Below, piece by piece: positions 3,731-18,361 of a stretch of 64,000 bases of DNA. A program made the position numbers and the translations under genes. The stretch comes from a virus (lineage: Duplodnaviria; Caudoviricetes), in IMG/VR virus record IMGVR_UViG_2890906962_000004, positions 28,175 through 92,174 of that record; one strand, 5' to 3'. The notes under the pieces were generated by a model, which had not been told where the DNA came from, did not search any database, and saw only the letters and a program-made list of their open reading frames with translations. Positions within the stretch are counted from its first letter, which is position 1, and each line of letters begins with the position of its first letter.

Positions 3731-4353
3731 AGCCCTATCTCTTTCATTAGGTTAATGACTTCTTGCTTTGCTTTCTGGTTATCCATTTCGAAAATAGTCT
3801 TGGATTGGCCCCAAGCATCACGATGAACTTTACGATCACAGATTCGTGATTGCGTTAGCGTCAAAGCCGGAATATCTGCGAGCGCATCAGCGGCCTCATT
3901 ACCTTCGGTAATAAACATATTCGTGGGAACCATGTTTAACACGACATAGCCCTTCACTTTCTCATTAAAATCTTGAGCCTCAGTAAAGATCCGGGTGAGA
4001 TTAGGCATAACATCAAGGTCCATCTGAGATGCTCGTAGAGGTGATATGAATATGTCGCAAGCAAGTAGGCCATTTCGCATTTCGGCACTATCACGGCCAG
4101 CACAATCAACAATAACGAAATCGTAGTTTTGCCCATGTTCCAAGAGCATGTTCTTGATCCGTCCACTAGCGCCAGTTACAGGGATGTGGTCTAGTTCTTC
4201 ACTACGATTGTTATACCAGTTGATAATTGATTGCTGATCGTCTGCATCAACAACCATTACAGATTTACCTTGCTGCCTAAGATAGCTTGCGATGGCGACA
4301 GTGAGAGTGCTCTTACCCACGCCACCTTTCTGACTTCCTATAACGATAATCAT
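3727..4353 (-). CDS. parA: type Ib ParA Walker ATPase
   Basis: KGGVGKST deviant Walker A, VDADDQQS, DFVIVDC; 208 aa with no N-terminal HTH. Confidence 0.92.
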   Translation of the reverse strand: MIIVIGSQKGGVGKSTLTVAIASYLRQQGKSVMVVDADDQQSIINWYNNRSEELDHIPVTGASGRIKNMLLEHGQNYDFVIVDCAGRDSAEMRNGLLACDIFISPLRASQMDLDVMPNLTRIFTEAQDFNEKVKGYVVLNMVPTNMFITEGNEAADALADIPALTLTQSRICDRKVHRDAWGQSKTIFEMDNQKAKQEVINLMKEIGL

Positions 4354-9008: not shown

Positions 9009-10718
9009 ATGAGTAACACTCAGCGCGCGCATGACCGCGCAAAAGATATTAAGAACCGCGCCTCTGCAGTAATGGCGATGACCATTGGTGCAGTTGATTC
9101 CTCCGCTTCTCCTGATCTGCAATTAGAGCAACTGCAAAGATCTGTAGTAAAAAACCCAATGTTTGAAGGCGTTGATGCGCGTTTTGGCGTAACCGTTACT
9201 GGTGCGTGGACCGAAGCGTTACACAACTACAAAGCATCCCACGGTAAATACCCGTCTGTAGAAGTCCTGGCTAACGCCCACAAATCCCTGCAAAACCTGA
9301 TGACCGAGAGCGTTAAAGAGTCCGGTTCAATCAAGGGTCCGAACGCTGCAATGTTTGAGTCTGCAGCTGCAGACATGCGCACCTCTGAGGGTGTGATGAA
9401 ACAAGCGATTTTCGCTGCAATGATCCTGCCGGCCGCTTTAGGCGCTGCCACCAGCGATGCGTGTACCTTTGTTCCGTGTGAGCGTGACATTGCCAAGATT
9501 TACGAACTGACCAACATCGCCGGTTCTAACTTTGGTACCTTCCGTGCCGGTGACGAACTGAATATGCACCGCACTGGCGCTTACTCTCAGATGCGCCGTA
9601 CTGAGCGCTTTGCTCAAGACAACCAACCAGACGGCACTAAGAAAGACTTCACGTTTTCTTTAGCAACGTTCCTGGGTACTGATGCGCCAATCATCAAAGG
9701 CCGCGCGAAGCTGTTAGTAAACCGCCGCGTTTCTAAGAAAGATGACTCTGACGGCAACCTGTATTTCAACGACACCGATTTCAACGGCGTTCAATACCAG
9801 GCAACCGGTAAAGTTGATTACGCGAAAGGCATTATCACTGTTTCTTTCAACACCGCACCAGCTGCCGGCACTGAATTAGCCGCACAAGTTGAGATTAACG
9901 TTGAAGGTAAAGCAGACCTTATCCCGGTTATCAACCAGACCATGCGCGAGTATGAGGTTAGCCCTTCACAGTACATCTTAGCGTCTGAGCACACTGTCCA
10001 GTCTGCGTCTGACTTACAACGTGAATTCGGTTTAAACCTGCAATCTCAGCAATTCCAAGCGATGACTCAATGGTTATCCCACGAAACTGACATGGCGCGT
10101 TTACGTACTCTCGTTTTCCATACCATCCCGAATTTCTCACGCGAATTTGACGTGGCACTGCCAGAAGGGCAGACCTACGAAAGTTGGGTAGGGATCATGA
10201 GCCATGCGGTTAACCGCCTGAGCACCGAAATGCTTAACCGTAACAAAGAGTCAGGCATCCGTGGTGGCTTTGCTGGTGGTGATGCAGCGAACTACTTACG
10301 TTCACTGCCTTCTAGCGTGTTCCAAAAGGACCCTAACTACGTCCAATCTCCATACGTCCAGTACATCGGTACGTTATTCAACACCATTCGTATCTACGAA
10401 GTGCCTAACCCTGCTTGTGAGTCCCTGCAAGCTGATGGCTTGGATTTCCAACCTTACGACATTTATTTCTACGGTCGCGGCGACAGCATCGGTAAAGCTG
10501 GCCTGATCGCAGGTGATGCCGTTCCTGCAATGCCGTTCGTTCATCCAACCGACAAAAACCTCGTTAACCGCACAACCATTTGGGGCTCTGCGCTTAACGA
10601 AATTCACCCACGCGGCGGTGAAAACTACTTCTCTCGTTTACGTCTGACCAACTCCAAAGTTGGTTCGTTCGACATGCTTACCGGCAAGCCAATCGAGGCA
10701 GTGGTCACGGGAAAGTGA
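9009..10718 (+). CDS. major capsid protein (P1 gp23-like)
   Basis: 569 aa, P1 gp23-like sequence (ATSDACTFVPC, GDAVPA..FVHPT), strongly biased codon usage, upstream of the sheath gene. Confidence 0.92.
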   Translation: MSNTQRAHDRAKDIKNRASAVMAMTIGAVDSSASPDLQLEQLQRSVVKNPMFEGVDARFGVTVTGAWTEALHNYKASHGKYPSVEVLANAHKSLQNLMTESVKESGSIKGPNAAMFESAAADMRTSEGVMKQAIFAAMILPAALGAATSDACTFVPCERDIAKIYELTNIAGSNFGTFRAGDELNMHRTGAYSQMRRTERFAQDNQPDGTKKDFTFSLATFLGTDAPIIKGRAKLLVNRRVSKKDDSDGNLYFNDTDFNGVQYQATGKVDYAKGIITVSFNTAPAAGTELAAQVEINVEGKADLIPVINQTMREYEVSPSQYILASEHTVQSASDLQREFGLNLQSQQFQAMTQWLSHETDMARLRTLVFHTIPNFSREFDVALPEGQTYESWVGIMSHAVNRLSTEMLNRNKESGIRGGFAGGDAANYLRSLPSSVFQKDPNYVQSPYVQYIGTLFNTIRIYEVPNPACESLQADGLDFQPYDIYFYGRGDSIGKAGLIAGDAVPAMPFVHPTDKNLVNRTTIWGSALNEIHPRGGENYFSRLRLTNSKVGSFDMLTGKPIEAVVTGK

Positions 10719-10747
10719 AGTCGGTAGACGCGCAACCGTCTACCGAT
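10695..10747 (+). other. programmed -1 ribosomal frameshift signal at the capsid gene 3' end
   Basis: SD-like GAGG 10695-10698; slippery G-GGA-AAG 10709-10715 immediately before TGA; perfect 10-bp hairpin TCGGTAGACG/CGTCTACCGA 10721-10746. Confidence 0.8.
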
Positions 10748-10933
10748 AACAGCGCTCAGGTCGCAGCAGCTCAGGCACAAGCCGAAGCTGACGCAGCCGC
10801 AGCAGCCCAGGCGAAAGCAGATGCGAAGGCTAAAGCTGACGCAAAAGCTAAGGCAGATGCGCAAGCTCAAGCCGATGCTGCAGCAGCTCAGGCTCAAGCC
10901 GATGCCGCAGCAAAAGAAACGGACGCTAAATAA
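10715..10933 (+). CDS. Ala/Gln/Lys/Asp-rich helical extension of the capsid protein (-1 frame)
   Basis: In the -1 frame of gp23; AQAKADAKAKADA repeats; no well-spaced RBS for its GTG. Confidence 0.7.
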   Translation: MKSVDAQPSTDNSAQVAAAQAQAEADAAAAAQAKADAKAKADAKAKADAQAQADAAAAQAQADAAAKETDAK

Positions 10934-10950
10934 CGTCAATCTCTACTAAT

Positions 10951-10973
10951 AAGCGCCCCTCGGGGCGCATTTT
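10951..10973 (+). terminator. hairpin/terminator after the capsid extension
   Basis: GCGCCC-CTCG-GGGCGC followed by ATTTT, located after the extension ORF rather than after the gp23 stop. Confidence 0.6.
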
Positions 10974-10984
10974 AGGAACAAGAA

Positions 10985-12574
10985 ATGAAAAAAATTAGTT
11001 TTGCGATGGGCTCAGCAGCCGGCATTGCAATTAATGAAGTTAACGCAACCGCAACCGGAAGTGTTGGCGCTGGTGGCGCAAGCGCCTTTGCAGGTTTAGT
11101 CCTGTCAACGCGTGGTGGCATTAACCGCGTTTTGAGCCTGACGGCTGATAACTTCACTAGCGTATTGGGTAAAGCACTGCATCCTCGTACTGGCGCGGCA
11201 TTTGAGCCATACCGCCATGTACAAACTGCCGTGTTAGGTGGCAACGGTAACGTTGTGCGCGTACCAGCACCAGGCATGATGATCCCTGCGGTCACGCTGC
11301 AGATGTTAGCCAGTGCAGACGGCAAGGGAACAACCTTTAAAGTGTCGAATACCGCGTTTGCTGCAGGTTCCACCCCTACAGTACCGGCTGGTTCATTCGG
11401 AATGATTTACGTTGATGACGGAGACGCTTCCGTTAACCGTAAAGTGCAGATCGTGCCAGACACGCAAAATACCGCGTTATACGACTTGAACCTAGTCGAA
11501 ACGGGCAGTGATGGCGTTGATGTGCTTGTAGAGTCATTACAGGTTTCGTTCGATCCAGAAGCGCGCAACGATATGGGACAAACCGCCTTTATCAGTGCTG
11601 CATTAGAGAATAACAACTCACGTTTACGTGCAGTTTTGAGCTCTGATGCTCTCGCACAATCTCTTAAAGCGACTGTAACCGCTGACTATACTCCATTCAT
11701 TGGTGGTACTGACGGTGATTTCACCAAGGTTACTTCTAACGACTACGCCAAAGCGTTAGCCGTCCTGAAAAAGTCACAGGCAAACTTTACCGCGATCCTT
11801 GCGCTAGGATGCTATGACGCACCAACGCTTATCGCGCTGAACCAATACGCTGCAGATTGCCGTGTCGATATGTTCTATGACGTGAAAGGCGCGCAAAACT
11901 CCACTGATGCAATCAAAGAAGCGAAAGGCCATAACTTAGGTGGGCAGCACACAGCCGCGCGTTACTACTTCCCATACAGCGCAATGGATAGCTACAGCAG
12001 CACTAACGTTGTTTACGGTATCAGCTGTGATGCGTTCGTAGCGAAAGCGAAAGGCGTTGCCCTGGTCAATGATGTTGGCGGCTGGCACTACTCTCCTGCA
12101 GGTACCTCGCGTGGCGTTCTGAACCGCTCAGGCATTTCTGTATTGCCTAACTTGGACGATCCAGACATGGAAGCGATGTATGCCGCGCGTATTAACTGCG
12201 TGTCAGTCACCCGTGCCGGCGATGTTTACATTGACGACTCTCTGACGACCTACGGTAAAGAAAACTATCTGCGCTTCCAGCACATTAGCTCGCTGTTAAA
12301 CGCTATCGCGCGTGATTTCTACGCCATCGCCGCTGACTTGAAGCACGAGCCAGACGGTATCACCCAAGACGGCCTGACCTCTGCAATGACTAACCTCCTT
12401 GAGCGTTATTACGCGGCCAACGCCTTAGTTACGCCACGCGATGCAAGCCAAGGTAAAGAGCCATTCATCGTGAATGTTCAGCAACTCGACATTGATAAGT
12501 GGCAAGTCACCTGGTCCGTCTGTCCGACCGGTACCAGCCGCCGCATTGTCGGTACTCCTGTTTTACTGCGCTAA
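10985..12574 (+). CDS. tail sheath protein (P1 gp22-like)
   Basis: 529 aa; HYSPAG..RG, RIN, and YLRFQHISSL sheath motifs. Confidence 0.92.
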   Translation: MKKISFAMGSAAGIAINEVNATATGSVGAGGASAFAGLVLSTRGGINRVLSLTADNFTSVLGKALHPRTGAAFEPYRHVQTAVLGGNGNVVRVPAPGMMIPAVTLQMLASADGKGTTFKVSNTAFAAGSTPTVPAGSFGMIYVDDGDASVNRKVQIVPDTQNTALYDLNLVETGSDGVDVLVESLQVSFDPEARNDMGQTAFISAALENNNSRLRAVLSSDALAQSLKATVTADYTPFIGGTDGDFTKVTSNDYAKALAVLKKSQANFTAILALGCYDAPTLIALNQYAADCRVDMFYDVKGAQNSTDAIKEAKGHNLGGQHTAARYYFPYSAMDSYSSTNVVYGISCDAFVAKAKGVALVNDVGGWHYSPAGTSRGVLNRSGISVLPNLDDPDMEAMYAARINCVSVTRAGDVYIDDSLTTYGKENYLRFQHISSLLNAIARDFYAIAADLKHEPDGITQDGLTSAMTNLLERYYAANALVTPRDASQGKEPFIVNVQQLDIDKWQVTWSVCPTGTSRRIVGTPVLLR

Positions 12575-17403: not shown

Positions 17404-18231
17404 ATGAACCTTCCATCATTTCCCCTACCTTCACAGCCTTTTGCGGAGGTTATCTTTCGCTCGCCTACCGTGCGCGATTCTATGGAATACATCGACATTC
17501 AGCCGTTTGATACGGAGAAAGTCACCACTAAATATCTCAATGCCTTGCAAGTCGGTGAGATCAACGATAGCGGCTTATGGACCCAACAAGACCGCCGCAC
17601 CGCCTTGTGGTGGATTTTCGTTAACTCTCGTGACAGCGCTTATCTGACGTACCAATACGAGTGTGGCCACTGTAAAGACTTCCACTTTGCAGACGTAGAT
17701 ATGAGTGATTTAAGCCAGGGTTATTCAGTCCTAGAAGTGCCACCAGCGATCGAGTGTGAAATCCCCGTAGAAGGCAATCCGGTTAAGTGGCAGCTAGTGC
17801 CTCTCGATGGCCGATCAGCTGAAATGCTTGAATACATGAAATACCAGTTACCACAAGCCGGCAGCGAAGGCTATGAAGCCGCACTGACCGAACTACGCAT
17901 AGCCGAACTGGCACTAATGACCCGAACGAAAGATGACCCGGAAGACTACAAAGCCGCAGCCGATCACCGTATGGACATGATTAAACGCATGGACCTTAAC
18001 AGCGAGTTTTCGCCGCTGGTGGCGCGTATTCAGCTAATGACGCGTGATTTAAAGCATGGCTTGGATATGGACGTAGAGAAAACCGGTGTATTTCTCAACC
18101 TACCACAACAATCCTGCAAGAAAACCAAAAAGGGGGAGCCGCAGCTATTCACAGCACTGCGCGCCCCATTTCGCAATACAGAATTTATCTCACGGATTAG
18201 ATCGGAATGGATGGATAACCATCATCAATAA
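17404..18231 (+). CDS. pmgB: PmgB-like tail/baseplate assembly chaperone
   Basis: Precedes the tape measure gene; CGHC motif (T4 gp26-like arrangement). Confidence 0.7.
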   Translation: MNLPSFPLPSQPFAEVIFRSPTVRDSMEYIDIQPFDTEKVTTKYLNALQVGEINDSGLWTQQDRRTALWWIFVNSRDSAYLTYQYECGHCKDFHFADVDMSDLSQGYSVLEVPPAIECEIPVEGNPVKWQLVPLDGRSAEMLEYMKYQLPQAGSEGYEAALTELRIAELALMTRTKDDPEDYKAAADHRMDMIKRMDLNSEFSPLVARIQLMTRDLKHGLDMDVEKTGVFLNLPQQSCKKTKKGEPQLFTALRAPFRNTEFISRIRSEWMDNHHQ

Positions 18232-18361
18232 CTTGGCCCTATACGGCTATCAGCCTGTTAGTGATGTTGAGAGCCTAGCCAGTTGGCGCGCCCTCGATAT
18301 GAACAAAGCATTGGAAGAAAAATATAAAAATGCCGCCAAGCAGGGCAAGGGGGGAACTTGA
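18086..18361 (+). CDS. small overlapping ORF before the tape measure gene (possible frameshift extension of pmgB)
   Basis: +1 frame relative to pmgB; C-terminal NNLALYGYQPVSDVESL..WRAL looks protein-like; stop overlaps the sit start. Confidence 0.5.
   Translation: MYFSTYHNNPARKPKRGSRSYSQHCAPHFAIQNLSHGLDRNGWITIINNLALYGYQPVSDVESLASWRALDMNKALEEKYKNAAKQGKGGT

What the first reader, a model, noticed from the sequence alone, without database searches (positions are those of the whole stretch)
10695..10933. Programmed -1 frameshift appends an Ala-rich helix to the major capsid protein
Seen: gp23 ends ACG GGA AAG TGA, and G-GGA-AAG is the lambda gpG/GT slippery heptamer. An SD-like GAGG lies 10 nt upstream and a perfect 10-bp hairpin 5 nt downstream, the dnaX-style three-part signal. 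The -1 frame reads 72 aa of AQAKADAKAKADA repeats, and the terminator follows this ORF. Frameshifted capsid extensions are known (T7 10B, Ig-like domains), but I know of none in P1-like phages or consisting of a low-complexity helix.
Basis: partly seen in the sequence, partly recalled or inferred. Interest (0 to 1): 0.85.

Follow-up and report, generated by a model that had tools for sequence, protein, structure and literature searches.

The report
Frameshift-made helical tail on phage capsid
The capsid gene of this P1/D6-like phage ends in a conserved slippery sequence and RNA hairpin that very probably make some ribosomes slip back one base and add a 72-residue alanine-rich helical tail; this is a new example of a known phage trick.

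Summary
The 569-codon capsid gene (9009-10718; 43% identical to P1 gp23, 60% to the D6 capsid protein) ends ACG GGA AAG TGA. That places G_GGA_AAG (10709-10715) in the slipping phase, directly before the stop. A hairpin of 10 Watson-Crick pairs plus one G-U pair follows (10720-10747; -21.3 kcal/mol, z -4.27). The -1 frame stays open for 72 codons of Ala/Lys/Asp/Gln-rich sequence, up to a terminator-like hairpin.

Three independent relatives (capsid 98%, 95% and 84% identical) decide the case. All keep the heptamer, but their stop codons are TGA, TAG and TAA. Two have no ATG, GTG or TTG anywhere in the -1 ORF, so the window's GTG 10715 is not a conserved start. The hairpin keeps its position, with two compensatory pair changes. 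Differences in the tail fall mostly on third codon positions of the -1 frame.

The D6 clade has A_AAA_AAG at the same junction. Other relatives carry C-terminal tails or Ig-like domains in frame. P1 has neither a heptamer nor a tail.

Best reading, at 0.85: a programmed -1 frameshift makes a minority long capsid form. No protein evidence exists. The upstream SD-like GAGG is not conserved.

Capsid frameshifts are already known (T7 10B, T3, A2, phiEco32/SU10), and this scan noted the D6 version before. This is a new member of a known kind.

The parts
9009..10718 (+). Major capsid protein gene in the 0 frame: 569 codons plus TGA. It is a homologue of P1 gp23 and the D6 major capsid protein.
   Evidence: ORF. 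phrog_1014, E 2.7e-174. tblastn gives 60.2% identity to the D6 major capsid protein and 42.8% to P1 gp23. A profile of the family hits PDB 9ukm 'Gp23' at E 2.1e-243.
10694..10697 (+). SD-like GAGG, 11 nt upstream of the heptamer. It is a possible but unproven accessory stimulator.
   Evidence: Sequence. It is kept in L004 and L092 but not at this position in L117, where AGGTGA ends 3 nt before the heptamer.
10709..10715 (+). Slippery heptamer G_GGA_AAG in the X_XXY_YYZ phase. This is the proposed -1 shift site.
   Evidence: It is invariant in 4 of 4 distinct sequences of this lineage while the flanking codons and the stop codon vary. The background is 4 X_XXA_AAG sites in 18,203 codon positions.
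10716..10718 (+). 0-frame stop codon TGA, directly after the heptamer. It may itself add a pause.
   Evidence: The position is kept but the codon differs in relatives: TGA in L004, TAG in L092, TAA in L117.
10720..10747 (+). Stem-loop of 11 pairs (10 Watson-Crick plus 1 G-U) with a 6-nt loop, 4-5 nt after the heptamer. This is the proposed downstream frameshift stimulator.
   Evidence: -21.3 kcal/mol, z -4.27. Relatives give z -4.04, -3.99 and -3.24. 93.2% of cells are paired, and 2 pairs show compensatory changes in L117.
10709..10933 (+). -1 frame coding stretch. Gly-Lys is re-read in the heptamer, then 72 codons (Val-Lys-Ser-Val-Asp...Thr-Asp-Ala-Lys) run to TAA 10931-10933. This is the Ala/Lys/Asp/Gln-rich tail, 6.9 kDa.
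   Evidence: Differences from relatives fall mostly on the third codon position of this frame, e.g. 6/2/26 against L004. Length differences between the four tails are whole codons. No Pfam or PHROG family matches. AlphaFold2 predicts a single helix over residues 9-71, pLDDT 90.
10953..10973 (+). GC-rich hairpin (6 pairs, 4-nt loop) followed by A-TTTT. It is the probable terminator or attenuator of the capsid transcript, lying after the -1 ORF and before the sheath gene (10985-12574).
   Evidence: Sequence. The same hairpin follows the -1 ORF in L004, L092 and L117, and a similar one follows gene 23 in P1. The consensus scan did not call it on the + strand; it was listed only on the minus strand.

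Best explanation
This is a programmed -1 ribosomal frameshift at the last two sense codons of the major capsid gene.

Most ribosomes read ...Thr-Gly-Lys-stop and make the 569-residue capsid protein. A minority slip back one base on G_GGA_AAG. That can happen in two ways: the tRNAs re-pair from GGA-AAG to GGG-AAA, or the P-site tRNA-Lys slips alone while the adjacent stop codon waits in the A site. Slipped ribosomes then read GTG AAG TCG... and add 72 residues. The product is a 641-residue form, ...VTGK-VKSVDAQ..., whose tail is predicted to be one long alanine-based helix of about 63 residues.

The hairpin 4-6 nt downstream, and perhaps the slowly decoded stop codon, would pause the ribosome over the heptamer.

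Shown by sequence and comparison: the signal, its conservation, coding constraint on the tail, and the lack of any start codon in two relatives.

Inferred: that slipping happens, how efficient it is, that the long form enters the capsid, and that the tail points outward.
For: 1. The heptamer is in phase and directly before the stop, and the -1 frame is open for 72 codons.

2. There are four distinct sequences of this lineage: the window, L004 (98% capsid identity), L092 (95%) and L117 (84% over residues 214-562). All four keep G_GGA_AAG, including its three degenerate third positions. The preceding codons differ, and the stop is TGA, TGA, TAG and TAA.

3. L092 and L117 have no ATG, GTG or TTG in the -1 ORF or in its open upstream stretch. 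In the window, GTG 10715 is the only such codon.

4. The tail is under coding constraint in the -1 frame. Differences by codon position are 6/2/26, 11/7/28 and 19/13/37 against L004, L092 and L117. Length differences are whole codons. The -1 frame has no stops, against 1-2 and 6-12 in the other two frames.

5. The hairpin gives z -4.27, -4.04, -3.99 and -3.24. It keeps its position in L117 with two compensatory pairs (U-A to C-G, C-G to U-A) and one G-U change, and 93.2% of cells are paired.

6. The D6 clade has the same design. 30 of the 162 readable loci end in A_AAA_AAG plus TGA, TAA or TAG, with a 35-codon -1 ORF. That ORF is similar to tails that are in frame in other relatives (Smith-Waterman 50, 0 of 1000 shuffles). 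In L046/L108 the -1 piece has no start codon at all.

7. Relatives carry in-frame tails of 14-59 residues (47 loci), some of them Ala-rich (L053, L114, P0021, P0026), or in-frame Big_2 domains. The capsid C-terminus therefore tolerates appendages.

8. G_GGA_AAG is the lambda G/GT site, which shifts about 4% of the time (PMC3296357, passages read). The same heptamer is proposed in the major head gene of SU10/phiEco32 (PMC4281155, passage read).
Against: There is no protein, ribosome-profiling or reporter evidence of any kind.

In the window and in L004 the first -1 codon is GTG overlapping the stop (GTGA). That is a classic coupling arrangement, so some independent initiation cannot be excluded for these two.

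The covariation rests on 4 sequences and one divergent relative. 39 of 500 shuffles reach the observed values.

The SD-like element is not conserved in L117.

The window's tail shows only compositional likeness to the in-frame Ala-rich tails of relatives: 63 and 118 of 1000 shuffles score as high, and BLASTP finds nothing. Homology of the tail to in-frame tails is therefore not shown for this lineage.

The 4-nt spacer to the first (G-U) pair is at the short end of known spacers. That statement is from my own knowledge and was not tested.
Confidence: 0.85

Rival explanations
1. The Ala-rich ORF is a separate small gene. It would be translated from GTG 10715 by termination-reinitiation coupling (the GTGA overlap) and give a free 72-residue protein, for example a decoration or assembly factor.
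For: GTG 10715 overlaps the capsid stop, and L004 has the same arrangement. The D6 record annotates the analogous -1 ORF as a separate hypothetical protein, orf50.
Against: The GTG is replaced by GTA in L092 and L117, whose -1 ORFs hold no ATG, GTG or TTG. No SD lies at a usable distance: GAGG is 17 nt upstream of the GTG, and GGGA is 2 nt upstream. The heptamer's degenerate positions are invariant while the stop codon changes. In the D6 clade, L046/L108 also lack any start codon.
Confidence: 0.08
2. The -1 ORF is an unexpressed relic of a formerly in-frame tail that was cut off by a one-base change, and the heptamer is a by-product of Gly-Lys coding.
For: Many relatives carry in-frame tails. 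The family's tails often end in Lys-rich sequence, which favours A-rich codons.
Against: The third-position bias of substitutions, the whole-codon length differences and the absence of stops in the -1 frame across 4 sequences down to 84% capsid identity all point to ongoing purifying selection. The heptamer and hairpin are conserved, with compensatory changes in the hairpin. The terminator-like hairpin sits after the -1 ORF, not after the capsid stop.
Confidence: 0.04
3. The shift is made at the RNA level: the polymerase slips on the G3A3 run and produces mRNAs with one base more or less. The ribosome is not involved.
For: None specific. The D6-clade site is a run of 7 A's, which is closer to the kind of run on which polymerases slip.
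Against: The window's runs are only 3 G's and 3 A's. From my own knowledge, known transcriptional slippage needs longer homopolymers; this was not tested here. A conserved hairpin 4-6 nt downstream fits ribosomal pausing.
Confidence: 0.02

Closest known systems
Phage T7 gene 10A/10B, the major and minor capsid proteins
   Same: A -1 frameshift near the end of the major capsid gene gives a minority capsid protein with a C-terminal extension that is not an Ig-like domain (PMC5009743, passages read).
   Different: According to that review, the T7 site is a G_GU-type non-canonical site with a distant stimulator near the terminator. Here the site is a canonical G_GGA_AAG set against the stop codon, with a nearby hairpin. 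The capsid protein belongs to a different family (P1 gp23 type, with an I-domain), and the tail is a low-complexity alanine-based helix.
Phage lambda G/GT tail assembly chaperone frameshift
   Same: The heptamer G_GGA_AAG is identical. The 0-frame stop lies just downstream. The shift relies on the single tRNA-Lys(UUU) and occurs about 4% of the time (PMC3296357, passages read).
   Different: The lambda case is in a tail chaperone gene, not a capsid gene, and its -1 product is a large fusion to the next gene. The strong adjacent hairpin seen here is not, as far as I recall, a feature of the lambda site.
phiEco32 / SU10 major head protein slippage; T3, Lactobacillus phage A2, Listeria phages A118 and A500
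   Same: These are -1 slippage sites at the end of a major head gene that add a C-terminal appendage. SU10 uses the same GGGAAAG (PMC4281155, passage read; PMC5009743).
   Different: In SU10/phiEco32, T3 and A2 the added part is an Ig-like domain. Here neither Pfam nor PHROGs finds a domain, and the fold prediction is one helix.
D6-clade phage-plasmids: A_AAA_AAG at the capsid stop
   Same: The capsid family is the same (60% identity) and so is the junction. A slippery heptamer sits against a stop codon that varies, followed by a short -1 ORF. This scan noted it before (e1-541482, e1-172699).
   Different: The heptamer differs. No consistently strong hairpin is present: z -2.86 in D6 but 0.13 in L035. 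The tail is 35 residues resembling the first strands of a Big_2 domain, and it is followed by a separate gene encoding a Big_2 domain that lacks profile positions 1-21.
E. coli dnaX tau/gamma signal (SD, heptamer and hairpin)
   Same: A heptamer ending in A_AAG with a downstream hairpin, and in the window an SD-like GAGG about 11 nt upstream.
   Different: In dnaX the shift truncates the protein; here it extends it. The SD-like element is not conserved across this lineage. The dnaX details are recalled from memory and were not checked in a paper here.

Membership tests
Programmed -1 ribosomal frameshift site (tandem-slippage type) | X_XXY_YYZ heptamer in the correct phase of the upstream ORF | tested here: met
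   G_GGA_AAG at 10709-10715, in phase with ORF 9009-10718.
Programmed -1 ribosomal frameshift site (tandem-slippage type) | A -1 frame ORF that opens at the site, is under coding constraint and has no start codon of its own | tested here: met
   72 open codons with third-position bias. L092 and L117 have no ATG, GTG or TTG. The window and L004 have one GTG at the junction.
Programmed -1 ribosomal frameshift site (tandem-slippage type) | Heptamer conserved in relatives beyond what the encoded amino acids require | tested here: met
   4 of 4 distinct sequences keep all 7 bases while neighbouring codons and the stop codon vary. The sample is small.
Programmed -1 ribosomal frameshift site (tandem-slippage type) | Downstream stimulatory RNA structure a few nucleotides after the heptamer | tested here: met
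   Stem of 11 pairs with z -4.27. Relatives give z -3.24 to -4.04. Two compensatory pairs, though 39 of 500 shuffles reach this level. These are predictions only.
Programmed -1 ribosomal frameshift site (tandem-slippage type) | The transframe protein is actually made | not testable with these tools
   No proteomic or reporter data are available. This needs virion mass spectrometry or a reporter assay.
dnaX-type three-part signal | SD-like sequence about 10 nt upstream that pairs with 16S rRNA | tested here: inconclusive
   GAGG lies 11 nt upstream in the window, L004 and L092. L117 lacks it there and has AGGTGA 3 nt upstream instead.
Frameshift-added Ig-like capsid decoration (T3, A2, phiEco32 type) | The extension is an Ig-like domain | tested here: not met
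   No Pfam or PHROG hit for the 72-residue tail. It is predicted as a single helix. Some relatives do carry in-frame Big_2 domains.
P1 gp23-type major capsid protein | Full-length sequence similarity to P1 gp23, whose capsid structure is solved | tested here: met
   42.8% identity over 99% of the protein. phrog_1014. The family profile hits PDB 9ukm over positions 2-567 at E 2.1e-243.

The most novel reading that the evidence does not exclude
The C-terminus of P1/D6-family capsid proteins may be a swappable display site whose dose is set by recoding. Short tails and Ig-like domains are read in frame on every subunit. Some tails, such as the one here, are put out of frame behind a slippery site, so that only some of the subunits (775 in P1's T=13 head) carry them. 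Here the cargo would be a monomeric alanine-based helix about 9 nm long, a 'whisker' not described on any phage head. The heptamer has been replaced (G_GGA_AAG against A_AAA_AAG), or invented twice, at the same junction.
Probability: 0.3. Interest if true: 0.55.

Novelty: new member of a known kind. Interest (0 to 1): 0.42.

Why it matters
Current annotation of these phage-plasmids misses the arrangement. It either calls a small hypothetical gene or calls nothing after the capsid gene, so a virion component goes unseen.

If confirmed, the lineage gives a compact and naturally varied set for studying -1 frameshift signals. The capsid family is constant while the heptamer differs, all three stop codons occur, and the hairpin is present or absent.

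It would also show that capsid surface appendages in the P1/D6 family are dosed by recoding. The tail's function is unknown. Candidates are surface adhesion, capsid stability or immune evasion.

Tried and rejected
- Megablast of 9009-11000 found nothing in the phage collection and only a 70%-identical Pantoea plasmid in the plasmid collection.
- A single-protein scan of viral contigs found no relative. The alignment-based scan found 80 loci, none from the window's own lineage.
- The genome search cannot draw relatives of a virus record. Centred on the genome that holds L004, the capsid was found in 6 of 401 genomes of that family and 1 of 7 of that genus. None of these added a new member of the lineage.
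- I could not obtain DNA for the capsid proteins P0002, P0003 and P0004. They are 79%, 66% and 61% identical and end in ...AGK, ...AGK and ...AKK. Their endings fit a heptamer, but this remains unseen.
- BLASTP of the two -1 ORFs against relatives with in-frame tails gave no alignment. A Smith-Waterman test with shuffles supported the D6 case and did not support the window's Ala-rich case.
- The D6 genome paper (PMC5800970) is not held, so I cannot say whether it mentions a capsid frameshift. The D6 record annotates two separate genes.
- Literature searches for a capsid frameshift in P1-like phages or phage-plasmids found none. One search listed three papers, and I checked only the P1 proteome paper among them. 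One search found nothing, and the three papers listed were seen as titles and abstracts only. Supplements were not read.
- An in-phase T_TTA_AAG in the PmgB-like gene (18048-18054) was checked and dropped. Its -1 frame closes after 50 codons, before the 0-frame stop.
- I did not run complex prediction, because I make no binding claim.
Full report
**What is there**

The window is part of a 92-kb virus record. The ORF 9009-10718 encodes a 569-residue protein. It matches phrog_1014 at E 2.7e-174. It is 60.2% identical to the major capsid protein of phage D6 and 42.8% to P1 gp23. A profile of the family hits the solved P1 Gp23 chain 9ukm over its whole length. The next gene, 10985-12574, is the tail sheath (phrog_1036), the same gene order as in P1 and D6.

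The capsid gene ends ACG GGA AAG TGA. This puts G_GGA_AAG (10709-10715) in the X_XXY_YYZ phase, with the stop directly behind it. A stem of 10 Watson-Crick pairs plus a closing G-U pair, with a 6-nt loop (10720-10747), follows after 4-5 nt. It folds at -21.3 kcal/mol, z -4.27, and 0 of 200 shuffles fold as well.

The -1 frame runs on for 72 codons to TAA 10931-10933. It encodes a 6.9-kDa tail that is 46% Ala, with Lys, Asp and Gln. A GC-rich hairpin followed by A-TTTT comes next (10953-10973). The consensus scan listed that hairpin only on the minus strand, because the + strand T-run is one T short of its threshold.

**Is it more than chance?**

In 45 long ORFs of the window (18,203 codon positions) there are 44 in-phase heptamers of any kind and 4 of the efficient X_XXA_AAG kind. 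One of those four is this site, on the last two codons of its gene.

**Relatives of the same lineage**

Three further independent sequences were found:

- L004, a Rosenbergiella metrosideri contig, capsid 98% identical. L086 is the same place reached another way.
- L092, a metagenome contig, 95% identical.
- L117, a metagenome contig, 84% identical over residues 214-562.

All four sequences keep G_GGA_AAG. The codon before it is ACG or GCG, and the codons further upstream differ. The stop codon is TGA, TGA, TAG and TAA. Each has a -1 ORF of 71-77 codons with the same composition, ending just before the same terminator-like hairpin.

It is GTA in L092 and L117, and those two -1 ORFs contain no ATG, GTG or TTG at all, nor does their open upstream stretch.

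Differences between the four tails fall mostly on the third codon position of the -1 frame: 6/2/26, 11/7/28 and 19/13/37 for the window against L004, L092 and L117. Length differences are whole codons. The other two frames hold 1-2 and 6-12 stops. The tail is therefore a protein-coding sequence under selection that, in two of four genomes, cannot be initiated on its own.

**The hairpin**

L004 and L092 keep the same core stem, with loop changes. L117 has a different sequence at the same columns. It shows two compensatory pairs (U-A to C-G and C-G to U-A) and one A-U to G-U change, and 93.2% of cells are paired. Sliding the 3' partner by 1-3 columns gives 20-50% paired.

The folds of the relatives give z -4.04, -3.99 and -3.24. 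With four sequences the statistics are weak: 39 of 500 shuffles reach the observed values.

The SD-like GAGG is kept in three sequences but not in L117. I treat it as unproven.

**The wider family**

I read the 3' end of the capsid gene in 162 loci, out of 170 held. Seven had no C-terminal match and one ran off its contig. Loci were not de-duplicated between collections. They fall into these classes:

| Class | Loci |
|---|---|
| G_GGA_AAG plus stop (4 distinct sequences) | 5 |
| A_AAA_AAG plus TGA, TAA or TAG, with a 35-codon -1 ORF (D6 type) | 30 |
| A_AAA_AAG two codons before the stop (one contig seen twice) | 2 |
| In-frame tails of 14-59 residues | 47 |
| Long in-frame extensions: 4 with Big_2-type endings, 2 long low-complexity | 6 |
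| Short, without heptamer or tail (P1 type) | 72 |

The D6 -1 ORF is similar to tails that are in frame in other relatives (Smith-Waterman 50 against a shuffled mean of 20.9, 0 of 1000 shuffles reach it). In L046/L108 the -1 piece has no start codon.

Some in-frame tails are Ala-rich (L053, L114, P0021, P0026). Their likeness to the window's tail is compositional only: 63 and 118 of 1000 shuffles score as high, and BLASTP finds nothing.

The family thus tolerates many C-terminal appendages and uses a slippery site at the same junction in two clades. P1 itself has neither.

**How it most likely works**

G_GGA_AAG is the lambda G/GT site. There the 0 frame is kept about 96% of the time, and the shift depends on tRNA-Lys(UUU) reading both AAG and AAA (PMC3296357, passages read).

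Here the hairpin, and possibly the adjacent stop codon, would hold the ribosome on the heptamer. Either both tRNAs slip, or the P-site tRNA-Lys slips with the stop in the A site. The protein is the same in both cases: ...Thr-Gly-Lys followed by Val-Lys-Ser-Val-Asp..., 641 residues in all.

AlphaFold2 on the tail alone gives one helix over residues 9-71 with mean pLDDT 90. This was a single-sequence prediction on low-complexity sequence.

The P1 head is T=13 with 775 gp23 copies. Its I-domain points outward (PMC12810830, passages read). That paper's passages do not say where the C-terminus lies. That the tail is external is my inference, drawn from relatives that carry Ig-like domains at this position.

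At a lambda-like 4%, about 30 tails per head would be expected. The hairpin could raise that figure. These numbers are inference.

**Comparison with what is known**

Frameshift-made capsid extensions are established for T7 (10B, not Ig-like), T3, Lactobacillus phage A2 and Listeria phages A118 and A500 (PMC5009743, passages read). One is proposed with the same GGGAAAG for SU10/phiEco32 (PMC4281155, passage read).

This scan had already noted the D6-clade version on other DNA (e1-541482, e1-172699). I confirmed its sequence basis here.

I found no paper describing a capsid frameshift in P1-like phages or phage-plasmids. The searches were made; one search covered passages of the P1 proteome paper. 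The D6 genome paper is not held.

**Verdict**

What is new:

- this lineage;
- the canonical lambda-type heptamer set against a variable stop codon, with a covarying hairpin;
- a tail that is a long alanine-based helix rather than an Ig-like domain.

It is a new member of a known kind. Protein-level proof is missing.

Noticed in passing
L001 4689-5115 (phage D6); also L046 and L044: In the D6 clade the 35-residue -1 tail resembles the first strands of a Big_2 domain. The next gene (D6 orf49) matches Big_2 only from profile position 22 to 79, and it ends with another first-strand-like piece. This looks like an Ig-like domain split between the frameshift tail and a separate protein. The scan noted it before (e1-172699).
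   Followed up: partly
L048 near 3780-3790: The capsid gene of this relative (capsid 53% identical) has an in-phase A_AAA_AAC two codons before its stop. The -1 frame then runs without a stop into the sheath gene, open for 543 codons. This is probably coincidence, but I did not examine it.
   Followed up: no
window 17404-18361: The PmgB-like gene (phrog_1854), just upstream of the 1296-residue tape-measure-like gene, holds an in-phase T_TTA_AAG at 18048-18054. Its -1 frame closes after 50 codons. A 91-codon ORF in the +1 frame (18086-18361) overlaps the gene's end and abuts the long gene. It matches no PHROG family.
   Followed up: partly
window 1-64000: ARAGORN finds no tRNA genes in the window. 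Any dependence of the shift on tRNA-Lys would therefore rest on the host's tRNA set, as far as this window shows.
   Followed up: no
P0021, P0025, P0028, P0038, P0041 (proteins): The in-frame C-terminal tails of relatives vary widely in length and composition: Ala-rich, Gly/Asn/Asp-rich, Glu/Lys-rich, Thr/Gly-rich. Nearly all end in a short Lys-containing motif. This suggests a conserved requirement at the very C-terminus.
   Followed up: no
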